The translations under genes were made by a program, and so were the position numbers. Below, piece after piece: positions 8,630 to 32,639 of a stretch of 64,000 nucleotides of DNA. Source of the stretch: a virus; the IMG/VR virus record IMGVR_UViG_3300001765_000030, positions 96,001-160,000 of that record; one strand, written 5' to 3'. How positions within the stretch are numbered: position 1 is the first letter of the stretch; every line of letters starts with the position of its first letter. Below the pieces are notes generated by a model. That model was not told the DNA's origin. It saw only the letters and a program-made list of their open reading frames with translations, and did not search any database.

Positions 8630-9916
8630 CTATATAAATAAAAGTTTATTTCCGTTAATAAAAGGAGTTCTAGCCCATATCGTCGCATTTTCCAATTCTC
8701 TTTCATAATCCATAGAATCATCAAATTTTCTTGGAAATTGAAGATTAAATCTATCGATCAATATTCCAATATTGTTTTCCTCAAGAGGCATTACCGCATT
8801 GAAACCTCCTGCAGGAGTTCCTTTGGTCTTATTAGCAAGTGTAGTTGCACCATAATTTGTAAATGCAGTCTGCATTGCCAACCAATTGAAGTCTGCAATA
8901 ATTTTAGGATTCATTGGCTCGTACGAGTTGTATGCATACGATATACTTACTTCATCAAACTCATCGAGCTTATTTTCTCTACTATGATTCAATGTATTCA
9001 TTGGCACACTTATTGGAAAACAACCTGTCAACTTTGCAAATCTAAGTATAGTCTTATTATCCTCGGCAAGTTTAAATACATACATTGAAATTGTATAATC
9101 TATACATCTTTCTTGGATATATCTAAGTCTTGGAGAAATAGTTCCTCTACAAACTTCTTGAATATACTGCAAGTGTAAATAATGTGATAGAAACATTGGA
9201 GATCTATACGCATCTTCAAACGTTACAGTAACTTCACCTATAGAATCATATCCGTCAGCACCTGAAGCATATGTTAACTGACGACCCATAAAGTCACCTT
9301 CAGTTTCATACTTATCCAATGTAAAGTCTTTCAATCCAGTCAATTCTTTACACAAATTACTTTTAAGAGGATCAAAGAATGAATCGGTTGAAAACGATGA
9401 ATCTAATTTTTTCGCATCTCCTCCGTCGGTAGATGGATCATAATCCATAGTTTTATCTCTTGTAGGATACTGTAATAAGTCCACAACAAGTTGTCCGACT
9501 TCGGATTGCATTGAATATTTCAAAAATGCCATTCGATTTACAGTAGATGCGCTTAGATTCAAATCTGGTCTAGTGAAGAACACATACGAATTTCCAGGCT
9601 TTTGAGGATCGAGTCCAAGAGTTTGCATATTTCTATTGAAATTCGTAGAATACGTTTTCAAAGGATCATCAAAATTTAACCCTACACTCGTGAGAGCATT
9701 TGAATATCGTTTAATTATATTATTGATGAGGGTACTGTCTACTCCGGATCCTTCACTATACTGCTTTCCGAATGTTGAGACATTTTCAACTATTGATTTA
9801 CGTATATGCTCCGTTAAATCATCGTTATCTAATGGCCGTTTCACACTACTTGTGGAAGATGCAGTAGTAATTCCAGGAATGACATTACTGAAATCAAAAT
9901 TGTCTTCAAGTGCCAT
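8630..9916 (-). CDS. Tail-tube-fold baseplate/tube initiator protein (T4 gp19/gp54-like)
   Basis: YVFFTRPDLNL, EVTVTFED, DYTISMYVFKL and FAKLTGCFPISVP are typical tube-fold motifs. Confidence 0.65.
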   Translation of the reverse strand: MALEDNFDFSNVIPGITTASSTSSVKRPLDNDDLTEHIRKSIVENVSTFGKQYSEGSGVDSTLINNIIKRYSNALTSVGLNFDDPLKTYSTNFNRNMQTLGLDPQKPGNSYVFFTRPDLNLSASTVNRMAFLKYSMQSEVGQLVVDLLQYPTRDKTMDYDPSTDGGDAKKLDSSFSTDSFFDPLKSNLCKELTGLKDFTLDKYETEGDFMGRQLTYASGADGYDSIGEVTVTFEDAYRSPMFLSHYLHLQYIQEVCRGTISPRLRYIQERCIDYTISMYVFKLAEDNKTILRFAKLTGCFPISVPMNTLNHSRENKLDEFDEVSISYAYNSYEPMNPKIIADFNWLAMQTAFTNYGATTLANKTKGTPAGGFNAVMPLEENNIGILIDRFNLQFPRKFDDSMDYERELENATIWARTPFINGNKLLFI

Positions 9917-9945
9917 ATTACATCCTTAATTGTTCATGACTGTTA

Positions 9946-9959
9946 CACATTGTAATGTT
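9946..9959 (-). promoter_or_regulatory. Late-type promoter motif AACA-N6-TG
   Basis: AACA-TTACAA-TGTG upstream of the baseplate operon. Confidence 0.65.
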
Positions 9960-9981
9960 GTGCGTGATTTATCCTCTAAAG

Positions 9982-30929: not shown

Positions 30930-30960
30930 GTTCAAAACGAAGTTCAAAAATGTAAAAAGA

Positions 30961-30976
30961 TGAGGACGAATCCTCA
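30961..30976 (-). terminator. UUCG-loop terminator
   Basis: Minus strand tgagga-ttcg-tcctca + tcttttt. Confidence 0.75.
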
Positions 30977-30982
30977 CCATAT

Positions 30983-31525
30983 TTATTGGAATTTTGTATT
31001 CAAATATGATATAATGAAATCATATTCTTCTTTATCCATCTTCAATCCCCACTTATATTTGACAGTTACCCAATCAATTATATAGGAATCTTTGTTTATT
31101 TTAGGCATCCATTTAGATGGATCTTTGGCACCCTTAGACCTATTCGAAGCGATTGACACAGCATGTAAATGTTTTGTATCGCTAATATTATTGAAGAAAT
31201 TAATCTTTTTATTCTTATCCCAAAGATACCCGCCAGACATATTCGCTTCAGATACTGGAACAAAATGGTCAATGTCTATAAGACTTGCACCTCTAATAGT
31301 ATCTCCACTGTAGATATCTATCCACATTCCTTTAACAATCTTTCCATTGACATATGTAGTACTTTCCGAAGATGCAATATTATCTCGAATCAAAACTTCT
31401 TGTCTTGTATTCTGACCATCTTTATCGGAATCTATCCAAGTTCCCCATGAAGATCTATCATACGTTGGCATCGTTTGACACAGTATACTTGAGAGTAATA
31501 CTAAGATTGATAAAATAACTTTCAT
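30983..31525 (-). CDS. Exported HNH endonuclease (stand-alone DUF1524/GmrSD-C-like)
   Basis: Real start ATG 31525 (AAGGAG RBS) gives signal peptide MKVILSILVLLSSILC. NTRQEVLIRD, IDIDHFVP and LHAVSIASNRSKGAKDPSKWMP follow. Confidence 0.82.
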   Translation of the reverse strand: MKVILSILVLLSSILCQTMPTYDRSSWGTWIDSDKDGQNTRQEVLIRDNIASSESTTYVNGKIVKGMWIDIYSGDTIRGASLIDIDHFVPVSEANMSGGYLWDKNKKINFFNNISDTKHLHAVSIASNRSKGAKDPSKWMPKINKDSYIIDWVTVKYKWGLKMDKEEYDFIISYLNTKFQ

Positions 31526-31540
31526 AAATATCTCCTTGTT

Positions 31541-31573
31541 AAAAAAATAAGGAGGGTGAATAACCGCCCTCCT
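31541..31573 (-). terminator. Terminator closing the ncRNA candidate, just upstream of the HNH RBS
   Basis: Minus strand aggagggcg-gttatt-caccctcct + tattttttt. Confidence 0.75.
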
Positions 31574-31890
31574 ATCTCTCGCACCGTTCGACCGTACGAT
31601 GTTGCGAAAACCATCTTGGTACGGTAAGTGATGGTCCACTAAAAATGTCCGTCACCATAGGACTCATCTATGGATTTGGGTTGAGTAATTATTATTTACG
31701 AATACTCAGACTAGACTCAACACATCTGATCGCACCCTGTCTAGGCGGGTTATAATGACCAACTTTATCCATTCACACGACTGGAATCGTAGAAGCTAGT
31801 TGGAACTCTACAGCAACATCAAATGTATCTAGACATACAATTGATTGATAAATGATTATTAATCAGCGAAAAAACTAATCATTTATCAAT
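31545..31890 (-). ncRNA. Candidate structured non-coding RNA (unclassified)
   Basis: No credible ORF; GC-richer than the flanks. Several stems (ccatag/ctatgg, gttgagt/actcaac, accgtac/gtacggt, long-range gatgttgc/gcaacatc). Upstream early- and late-type motifs; terminator with U-tract at the 3' end. Confidence 0.55.
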
Positions 31891-31898
31891 ACATTGTT
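31885..31898 (-). promoter_or_regulatory. Late-type promoter motif upstream of the ncRNA candidate
   Basis: AACA-ATGTAT-TGAT. Confidence 0.45.
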
Positions 31899-31930
31899 TA
31901 AGCAGATATACATATAAATATACATCTACT

Positions 31931-31946
31931 CATAATTAAATATATA
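31931..31946 (-). promoter_or_regulatory. Early-type promoter motif upstream of the ncRNA candidate
   Basis: TATATATTTAATTATG with no ORF downstream. Confidence 0.65.
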
Positions 31947-31970
31947 ACCATAAATTCGATTTAAATAATA

Positions 31971-31990
31971 AAAAAAATAGCCCGAAGGCT
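31971..31990 (-). terminator. UUCG-loop terminator after the sORF
   Basis: Minus strand agcc-ttcg-ggct + attttttt. Confidence 0.75.
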
Positions 31991-31991
31991 C

Positions 31992-32057
31992 TTATTTTAA
32001 ATTAATGGCAAGAGATTTAATCTCTCTCATCATCGCTTCAAATAATTCTTTAATCAT
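31992..32057 (-). CDS. 21-aa small peptide MIKELFEAMMREIKSLAINLK (missing from the ORF track)
   Basis: AAAGGTGG RBS 5-6 nt upstream, early-type motif at 32085-32104, and a UUCG hairpin plus U-tract directly after the stop. Confidence 0.65.
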   Translation of the reverse strand: MIKELFEAMMREIKSLAINLK

Positions 32058-32084
32058 TTGATCCACCTTTATTAAGTTTATTAT

Positions 32085-32104
32085 CATCACTTAATATAGA
32101 CATC
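32085..32104 (-). promoter_or_regulatory. Early-type promoter motif
   Basis: GATGTCTATATTAAGTGATG upstream of the 21-aa sORF. Confidence 0.55.
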
Positions 32105-32124: not shown

Positions 32125-32138
32125 AACATAGTAATGTA
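32125..32138 (+). promoter_or_regulatory. Late-type promoter motif
   Basis: AACA-TAGTAA-TGTA. Confidence 0.65.
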
Positions 32139-32171: not shown

Positions 32172-32639
32172 ATGACTCCTGCAGCGTATATTAATACTAT
32201 CTCAACTAAGAAGTTTAATACTCCAGCGTATAGTGGCGCTGGTTACGTATTTTCAAAAATTCCTGAAAATACTCCATTTGCTCGTCACCCAGCAGATGTT
32301 TCACGATACTGTGAGCATATTGAATCTGGAAAAGATAAAGCGTCTTTCGTCGATAAATATGAACGGTTTGAATTCAGAATGACAGATGGTAGAACATTTG
32401 GTGCAATTCTTAAAGGTACACTTGACGTGTCGGATGCAAATATTGCTATATTTAAAACAGATGCTGACTTGTACGATACTATCGCTGTTGCAGGTGCTCC
32501 TCAGCAGAATAAATATGAGTATATCGATAAAACTACCGGAAAAAGAATGCGTAGATATTATGAACGCACTGTAGTTGTTGATTATATCAAAATTGACGTT
32601 ATCGAATTTGTAACAGTTGTTACAGAAGAAATTGTCTAA
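32172..32639 (+). CDS. Hypothetical protein (late-type promoter)
   Basis: GAGG RBS; AACA-N6-TG motif at 32125. Confidence 0.7.
   Translation: MTPAAYINTISTKKFNTPAYSGAGYVFSKIPENTPFARHPADVSRYCEHIESGKDKASFVDKYERFEFRMTDGRTFGAILKGTLDVSDANIAIFKTDADLYDTIAVAGAPQQNKYEYIDKTTGKRMRRYYERTVVVDYIKIDVIEFVTVVTEEIV

What the first reader, a model, noticed from the sequence alone, without database searches (positions are those of the whole stretch)
31541..31946. Independently transcribed ~350-nt structured RNA, with alternative pairings, in front of an exported HNH nuclease
Seen: the largest non-coding stretch in the window. On the minus strand it has an early-type motif (31931-46, identical to two bona fide gene promoters), a late-type AACA-N6-TG motif (31885-98), and a 15-bp perfect inverted repeat (31844-58/31876-90). 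A GC-richer core follows with stems ccatag/ctatgg, gttgagt/actcaac and accgtac/gtacggt. The 3' segment gcaacatc (31599-31606) can pair locally inside the accgtac hairpin or long-range with 5' gatgttgc (31813-31820). The unit ends in a terminator with a U-tract that lies directly before the RBS of the nuclease. I could not match it to tRNA, tmRNA, RNase P, SRP, group I/II intron or common riboswitch signatures. Inference: either a new phage ncRNA class or an attenuator/riboswitch-like leader controlling read-through into the nuclease.
Basis: partly seen in the sequence, partly recalled or inferred. Interest (0 to 1): 0.82.

Follow-up and report, generated by a model that had tools for sequence, protein, structure and literature searches.

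The report
Long non-coding leader before phage nuclease
An uncultured jumbo phage has a roughly 350-385-base non-coding stretch, with its own promoters and terminator, in front of a secreted DNase gene; it is a real untranslated unit, but its supposed elaborate RNA structure and switch are no better than chance and it has no relatives, so it is an orphan leader or RNA of modest interest.

Summary
The anatomy is real. On the minus strand lie an early-type promoter motif (31946-31929), a late AACA-type promoter (31898-31887), a long AT-rich hairpin, a 249-nt core at 43% GC, an intrinsic terminator (31573-31541), and then the ribosome-binding site and ATG (31525) of a signal-peptide DUF1524/HNH nuclease. 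It lies in the largest non-coding gap of the 181-kb record, which is a deep branch of AR9/PBS1-like jumbo phages.

- **Known families:** no Rfam family, tRNA or tmRNA matches it.
- **Structure:** significant folding is confined to the 5' hairpin (z -3.5) and the terminator (z -4.5). The core is ordinary (z -0.9 to -1.2). Its 6-8-bp stems are about as frequent as chance predicts, and the terminator/antiterminator pairing scores no better than shuffles.
- **Relatives:** none carries a homologue. The nearest syntenic relative has a different T-loop RNA there and no nuclease, another has a tmRNA, and a third has no gap.
- **Context:** nuclease homologues elsewhere lack a leader. A terminator placed directly before a ribosome-binding site occurs at six or more other junctions in this genome.

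Best reading: a lineage-specific non-coding leader with a passive, leaky terminator that limits nuclease expression. A new functional RNA is not excluded. Other first readers of this scan flagged the same stretch of the same genome. Expression could not be tested.

The parts
31929..31946 (-). Early-type (virion RNA polymerase) promoter motif TATATATTTAATTATGAG. The start site is predicted near 31925, by analogy with AR9's AAATATATATTAT-N6-G(+1).
   Evidence: Three exact copies in the window against 0.36 expected. Genome-wide variants lie upstream of genes. The AR9 consensus is from PMC5312081. The start site is inferred, not shown.
31887..31898 (-). Late-type (non-virion RNA polymerase) promoter AACAATGTATTG, with predicted start site G31887.
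   Evidence: AACA-N6-T[AG] lies 12-80 nt before same-strand starts in 46 of 268 cases, against 10-36 of 275-626 for control words. The extended consensus in this phage is AACA-N3-TAATG/TATTG, 30-47 nt before start codons, and this site fits it.
31826..31908 (-). Long AT-rich imperfect hairpin (33-nt arms, 79% complementary) with a perfect 15-bp centre, 31890-31876 / 31858-31844. In the late transcript a perfect 12-bp stem begins at the very first predicted base.
   Evidence: repeat I1; z -3.5 for 31925-31823 and z -3.1 for 31887-31823. The roles as 5' stabiliser or RNase III site are inferred.
31574..31822 (-). Non-coding core richer in GC (43.4%). It has no ORF with a ribosome-binding site, no significant fold and no homologue.
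   Evidence: GC. (z -0.9 and -1.2). (stops in all six frames; tblastx found nothing). (no Rfam family). (exact 18-mers found only unrelated DNA).
31541..31573 (-). Intrinsic terminator: stem AGGAGGG/CCCUCCU, a 10-nt loop with two inner pairs, then UAUUUUUUU.
   Evidence: I9; -13.3 kcal/mol, within the range of the genome's other terminators; z -4.5.
30983..31537 (-). Ribosome-binding site AAGGAG (31537-31532) and a 180-aa nuclease of the DUF1524/GmrSD_C His-Me type with a hydrophobic N-terminal leader, starting at ATG 31525.
   Evidence: Homologues are 161-307 aa and most carry PF07510. The window protein itself is below the Pfam cut-offs. There is no ribosome-binding site before GTG 31639.
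30959..30978 (-). Terminator that ends the nuclease unit. The next early promoter follows at 30927-30912.
31971..32104 (-). Upstream neighbour: an early-promoter variant, a 21-24-codon micro-ORF and a terminator. It is a separate unit.
   Evidence: Its promoter and terminator positions are conserved in L007, but the peptide is not.

Best explanation
The stretch is the untranslated first part of a small transcription unit whose only gene is the secreted nuclease.

Two tandem promoters, one early-type and one late-type, should give RNAs of about 385 and 347 nt. An AT-rich hairpin sits at or near their 5' end. Most transcripts should stop at the intrinsic terminator at 31573-31541, and the minority that read through carry the nuclease ribosome-binding site and ORF.

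The terminator therefore acts as a fixed, unregulated attenuator that keeps nuclease mRNA low relative to the leader RNA, as at several other gene junctions in this genome.

The 249-nt GC-richer core is specific to this lineage. It has no demonstrable structure or relatives, so it is either spacer or remnant sequence, or an orphan RNA whose function cannot be read from the sequence.

Shown: the motifs, the hairpin, the terminator, the absence of coding capacity, and the absence of homologues. Inferred: the start sites, termination, read-through and stabilisation.
For: - The promoter motifs match this phage's own consensus and the AR9 logic that early plus late promoters give continuous expression.
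- The terminator is as strong as others in the genome and significant against shuffles. AR9 transcription terminates strongly at predicted terminators.
- No good promoter lies between the terminator and the ATG: AACAAGGAGATA at 31540 does not fit the extended late consensus.
- A terminator directly before a ribosome-binding site recurs at six or more other junctions.
- No ORF with a ribosome-binding site lies in the core.
- The core fold is ordinary.
- The nearest relative, L007, has the same slot without a nuclease and with a different RNA. The slot is hypervariable.
- Long 5' UTRs of up to 491 nt are documented in AR9.
- A second long leader exists in this genome.
Against: - There are no expression data.
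- The genome is 93% coding, so 249 nt of functionless sequence would be unusual, and its GC is well above that of other non-coding DNA. This hints at some constraint.
- The minus-strand ensemble is somewhat better defined than shuffles (11th percentile).
- If the terminator were efficient, the nuclease would hardly be made.
Confidence: 0.5

Rival explanations
1. An independent, functional structured non-coding RNA of a new class, acting in trans or binding a protein. In this reading the nuclease gene merely landed behind its terminator.
For: - It has its own early and late promoters and its own terminator.
- Its GC is raised, as in RNA genes of AT-rich genomes.
- Relatives keep RNA genes in the same slot: a tmRNA in L008 and a T-loop RNA in L007 that has no nuclease behind it.
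- The three G-U pairs in the first hairpin make sense only on the minus strand (sequence).
Against: - The core z-score is -0.9 to -1.2.
- No homologue was found in L007, L008, G001 or by exact-word scans.
- No complementarity to other phage genes beyond chance.
- No Rfam family.
Confidence: 0.2
2. A regulated attenuator (riboswitch-, T-box- or protein-dependent leader) in which an antiterminator competes with the 31573-31541 terminator to control the nuclease.
For: - The terminator abuts the ribosome-binding site.
- Truncated folds pair 31754-31743 with 31569-31559, competing with the local ACCC/GGGU hairpin.
Against: - That pairing is no better than shuffles: 84% do as well.
- No riboswitch or T-box hit even at E up to 10.
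- Nuclease homologues lack any leader.
- The terminator-before-RBS layout is generic in this genome.
- No conservation.
Confidence: 0.08
3. A decaying remnant of a former protein or RNA gene in a hypervariable accessory slot, kept only because it separates the promoters from the nuclease gene.
For: - The slot differs in every relative.
- No structure signal, no conservation, and stops in all frames.
- The GC is close to the upper range of coding DNA.
Against: - tblastx against the relatives and the rest of the genome finds no protein trace.
- The tmRNA model finds nothing.
- Compact phage genomes usually delete junk.
Confidence: 0.17

Closest known systems
Long 5' UTRs and tandem early/late promoters of Bacillus phage AR9 (PMC5312081)
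   Same: - The promoter logic is the same: an AT-rich early motif ending ...ATTAT-N6-(+1), and a late AACA-N6-T[A/G] motif.
- Genes with both promoters are continuously expressed.
- UTRs reach up to 491 nt.
- Termination at predicted hairpins is strong.
   Different: - This phage is only 28-30% identical to the AR9 group in the RNA polymerase beta' subunit.
- Its late consensus is extended (AACA-N3-TAATG).
- The leader here ends in a full terminator directly before the ribosome-binding site.
Type III toxin-antitoxin loci (ToxIN type): promoter, RNA, terminator, nuclease gene
   Same: The order of parts is the same, and the idea that a terminator sets the ratio of RNA to nuclease mRNA.
   Different: - There are no tandem repeats in the RNA.
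- The protein is a signal-peptide DUF1524 DNase, not a ToxN-type RNase.
- No PADLOC family matches.
Terminator/antiterminator leaders (riboswitches, T-box) of Bacillota
   Same: A leader of similar length, with an intrinsic terminator just before the ribosome-binding site.
   Different: - No aptamer or T-box signature.
- Antiterminator pairing is at chance level.
- No conservation with the regulated gene.
RNA genes in the same slot of related phages: tmRNA (L008) and a T-loop/ACCA RNA (L007)
   Same: The position is the same, between the 155-aa-family gene and the lysis/topoisomerase block. Size and GC are similar. In L007 it also follows a micro-ORF unit.
   Different: - No sequence or motif-order similarity beyond chance.
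- No T-loop, acceptor end or tag frame in the window RNA.

Membership tests
Any Rfam 15 family (including tmRNA, T-box, riboswitches, group I/II introns, 6S, RNase P, HEARO, GOLLD, ROOL) | A covariance-model score at or above the family's gathering threshold. | tested here: not met
   No hits at gathering in the window or the rest of the record. At E up to 10 on 31400-32100 only noise appeared, with the best hits on flanking terminators.
tmRNA | A tRNA-like domain (acceptor stem with G3-U70, T-arm, NCCA end) plus a tag reading frame. | tested here: not met
   ARAGORN finds nothing down to 80% thresholds and only noise at 70%. RF00023 finds nothing in G000. The hairpin 31598-31582 is a poor T-arm, with G at position 54 and a G-G at 53-61 (sequence).
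Transcription attenuator / riboswitch expression platform | An intrinsic terminator immediately upstream of the regulated gene. | tested here: met
   The same layout occurs at six or more other junctions, so it is not diagnostic.
Transcription attenuator / riboswitch expression platform | A mutually exclusive antiterminator pairing that is better than chance. | tested here: not met
   Best duplex -13.1 kcal/mol against a shuffle mean of -15.0; 84% of shuffles do as well or better.
Transcription attenuator / riboswitch expression platform | A conserved sensor domain associated with the regulated gene family. | tested here: not met
   Nuclease homologues P0002 and P0005 are directly preceded by other genes. 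Relatives of the phage lack the RNA.
Type III toxin-antitoxin antitoxin RNA | Tandem direct repeats upstream of the terminator. | tested here: not met
   Tandem Repeats Finder gives 0 rows, and the only direct repeat is one 10-nt pair 338 nt apart.
AR9-type early/late promoter pair | A match to the phage's own over-represented early motif and to AACA-N6-T[A/G], at the usual places. | tested here: met
   Activity was not tested.
Bacterial Y RNA (YrlA-like) | A long terminal stem plus a tRNA-like module, with an Rsr/Ro (TROVE) gene in the genome. | tested here: not met
   No TROVE or RtcB in the record, which is 69% complete. No T-arm in the window RNA.

The most novel reading that the evidence does not exclude
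The 249-nt core is a genuinely new phage RNA. One version is an RNA that holds the co-transcribed DNase in check inside the cell before export: a repeat-less analogue of type III toxin-antitoxin loci, with the terminator setting the RNA-to-nuclease ratio. The other version is a new sensor that gates read-through.
Probability: 0.07. Interest if true: 0.8.

Novelty: new member of a known kind. Interest (0 to 1): 0.3.

Why it matters
If the core proved functional, it would be a first non-coding RNA for a deep, uncultured branch of AR9-like jumbo phages, and possibly a new way to restrain a secreted DNase.

As it stands, the value is mostly in the annotation:
- It gives the early and late promoter consensus of this lineage.
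- It shows that leaky terminators before ribosome-binding sites are a general design feature of this genome.
- It identifies a hypervariable slot where related phages keep RNA genes (a tmRNA, a T-loop RNA).

It also shows that raised GC plus hand-drawn stems in an AT-rich phage are not enough to call a structured RNA.

Tried and rejected
- **Known RNA families:** Rfam at gathering and at E up to 10, and ARAGORN at default and relaxed thresholds, gave nothing.
- **DNA similarity:** blastn of the region against 50,697 phage records found no match.
- **Protein-anchored searches in IMG/VR:** the nuclease, the 991-aa protein and RNA polymerase beta' gave no close relatives. The 155-aa family alignment found none in IMG/VR or JGI metagenomes.
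- **Exact 18-mers from the core:** scans of viral, metagenome and genome collections returned only unrelated GC-rich DNA.
- **Relatives reached through topoisomerase II:** L005-L014, L042-L044 and G001 have no alignable RNA. Five of these contigs (L006, L012, L013, L042, L043) stop less than 5 kb upstream of the topoisomerase gene, short of the slot.
- **Pseudogene test:** tblastx found nothing.
- **Replication origin:** no GC-skew turn at this place.
- **Repeated operator:** the hairpin arms occur nowhere else in the genome.
- **Antisense targets:** matches are at chance level.
- **Y RNA idea:** no TROVE or RtcB gene.
- **Type III toxin-antitoxin idea:** no repeats and no PADLOC hit.
- **Upstream ORFs:** 31667-31575 (31 codons) and about 31771-31691 (26 codons) have no ribosome-binding site, in a genome where nearly every gene has one.
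- **Second late motif:** AACAAGGAGATA at 31540 overlaps the ribosome-binding site but does not fit the extended consensus.
- **Covariance model:** none was built, because only one distinct sequence exists.

Full report
**Context.** The window is bases 96001-160000 of a 181,190-bp IMG/VR record estimated to be 69% complete. It encodes split multisubunit RNA polymerase subunits, topoisomerase II, a GroEL-like protein and large virion proteins. Its RNA polymerase beta' piece is only 28-30% identical to the best isolates: Listeria LPJP1, Staphylococcus S6/PALS_2 and the Bacillus AR9 group. It is therefore a deep, uncultured branch of AR9/PBS1-like jumbo phages. The record is about 93% coding by a crude ORF call, and the gap holding the finding is its largest.

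**Anatomy on the minus strand.**
- An upstream micro-ORF unit ends in a terminator at 31997-31975.
- TATATATTTAATTATGAG follows at 31946-31929. The 16-mer occurs exactly three times in the window, against 0.36 expected. The other two copies lie 24 and 48 nt before gene starts, and variants lie before other genes across the record. It resembles the AR9 early consensus AAATATATATTAT-N6-G(+1) (PMC5312081), which puts the start near 31925.
- AACAATGTATTG lies at 31898-31887.
- I tested whether the AR9 late motif is used here. AACA-N6-T[AG] lies 12-80 nt before same-strand starts in 46 of 268 cases, against 10-36 of 275-626 for seven control words. The real sites share an extended consensus, AACA-N3-TAATG/TATTG, 30-47 nt before the start codon. 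The 31898 site fits it.
- A second match at 31540 (AACAAGGAGATA, overlapping the ribosome-binding site) does not fit.
- The plus-strand site at 32125 is a textbook late promoter for the divergent 155-aa gene 32172-32639.
- In AR9, early plus late promoters mean continuous expression.

**Structure.**
- The perfect 15-bp repeat is the centre of a hairpin with 33-nt arms, 31908-31876 / 31858-31826.
- The predicted late start, G31887, is the first base of a perfect 12-bp stem.
- The 5' part folds with z -3.5 and the terminator with z -4.5. The terminator's -13.3 kcal/mol lies within the range of other terminators in the genome.
- The 249-nt core (31822-31574, 43.4% GC) has z -0.87 or -1.2. Its ensemble diversity is at the 11th percentile of shuffles. 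The plus strand gives z -0.3.
- The striking z of -5.1 for the whole stretch therefore does not come from the core.
By my own estimate, about 0.7 perfect 8-bp pairs and 2.7 perfect 7-bp pairs are expected by chance in 300 nt.
- I found a candidate antiterminator, 31754-31743 with 31569-31559. However, the best duplex between the terminator's 5' side and the upstream RNA is matched or beaten by 84% of dinucleotide shuffles.

**Coding and identity.**
- All six frames of the core carry stops, and the two short ORFs lack ribosome-binding sites.
- tblastx against the relatives and the rest of the genome finds nothing.
- No Rfam family matches, even at E up to 10. There is no tRNA or tmRNA.
- There are no tandem or dispersed repeats, no GC-skew turn, and no antisense target beyond chance.

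**The nuclease.**
- ATG 31525 follows AAGGAG by seven bases. GTG 31639 has no ribosome-binding site, and starting there would mean translating through the terminator.
- The 180-aa product has a hydrophobic N-terminal leader. It belongs, through close homologues, to DUF1524/GmrSD_C. Its own Pfam scores are below the cut-offs.
- The nearest non-identical homologues are 49-54% identical. In two contigs I fetched, they sit directly behind other genes, with no leader.

**Relatives.**
- Single-protein searches found no close kin.
- Topoisomerase II homologues at 44-64% identity led to contigs of the same clade.
- L007 is the closest across this region, at 30-67% amino-acid identity in six neighbouring genes. 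Between its 155-aa-family gene and its 114-aa-family gene it has a micro-ORF unit in the same place, then a different RNA candidate of about 230 nt (16-bp terminal helix, perfect T-arm...GC-ACCA end), and no nuclease.
- L008 has a canonical tmRNA (162 bits) plus about 800 nt more of non-coding DNA in the slot.
- A relative from SRR19430208 has an unrelated ORF there.
- G001, with the most similar topoisomerase (64%), has a 460-aa ORF and only a 154-nt gap.
- Nothing in any of these aligns with the window RNA beyond chance.
- A near-identical contig, L002, shows no substitutions over 199 nt, so no variation is available.
- Exact 18-mers from the core hit only unrelated DNA.

**Is the terminator-RBS junction special?** No. 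A simple scan finds at least six other places in this record where a strong hairpin and U-tract are followed within 7-37 nt by a ribosome-binding site and start codon, with no promoter between. In AR9, transcription terminates strongly at predicted terminators, so such junctions probably grade expression along short operons.

**Reading.**
- The unit is real and non-coding. It most likely gives an abundant terminated leader RNA and a minor read-through mRNA for the nuclease: a passive attenuator with a 5' hairpin.
- The core may be spacer or remnant sequence in a hypervariable accessory slot, or an orphan RNA.
- Its raised GC, in a compact genome, is the only real hint of function.
- A regulated switch and a new RNA class are not excluded, but nothing measurable supports them.

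Noticed in passing
G000:C1:62569-62832, minus strand (= L018:3169-3432; outside the window, window coordinates about -33431 to -33168): A second long leader: about 264 nt between an early-promoter variant (TATATTAAGTGATGAT, the same as the micro-ORF promoter) and a 102-aa gene. It forms a row of strong hairpins with z -5.3 (0 of 200 shuffles), far more structured than the finding's core. It has no Rfam family.
   Followed up: partly
L007:4712-4940 (+): An RNA candidate of about 230 nt in the nearest relative. It has a 15-16-bp terminal helix with a G-U at the third pair, a 3' ...GC-ACCA end and a perfect T-arm (GUGG-UUCGAUU-CCAC). Neither ARAGORN nor Rfam calls it. It could be an aberrant tmRNA-like or tRNA-like RNA.
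   Followed up: partly
L008:4822-6038 (+): A phage-encoded canonical tmRNA (162 bits, tag ANNFAVKFATAFAENVQLGMATSIAA). About 800 nt of further non-coding DNA follows, carrying three promoter-like TATAATATATTAT motifs.
   Followed up: partly
L007:9343-12025: The topoisomerase II gene is split by a group I intron (9686-9962, 92 bits) into a 120-aa ATPase piece and a 674-aa piece. An HNH_3 gene lies just upstream.
   Followed up: no
window 31971-32104 (-) and L007:4500-4672: The micro-ORF unit keeps its promoter sequence and terminator position between the two phages, but the peptides (21 and 18 aa) are unrelated. It may be a small RNA rather than a peptide gene.
   Followed up: partly
whole record; examples at window 21038, 40388, 46055, 64598 (-): Strong hairpin-plus-U-tract terminators placed 7-37 nt before a ribosome-binding site and start codon, with no promoter between, recur at six or more junctions.
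   Followed up: partly
whole record; for example window 32125-32136 (+), 35691 region (-): The late promoter consensus of this phage is AACA-N3-TAATG(T), typically 30-47 nt before the start codon. This extends the AR9 AACA-N6-T[A/G] motif to a very distant relative.
   Followed up: yes
window 32172-32639 (+): A 155-aa protein family with no Pfam match, found in only four protein clusters of the 5.8-billion-protein collection. It is always beside the hypervariable slot. G001 has a 218-aa version.
   Followed up: partly
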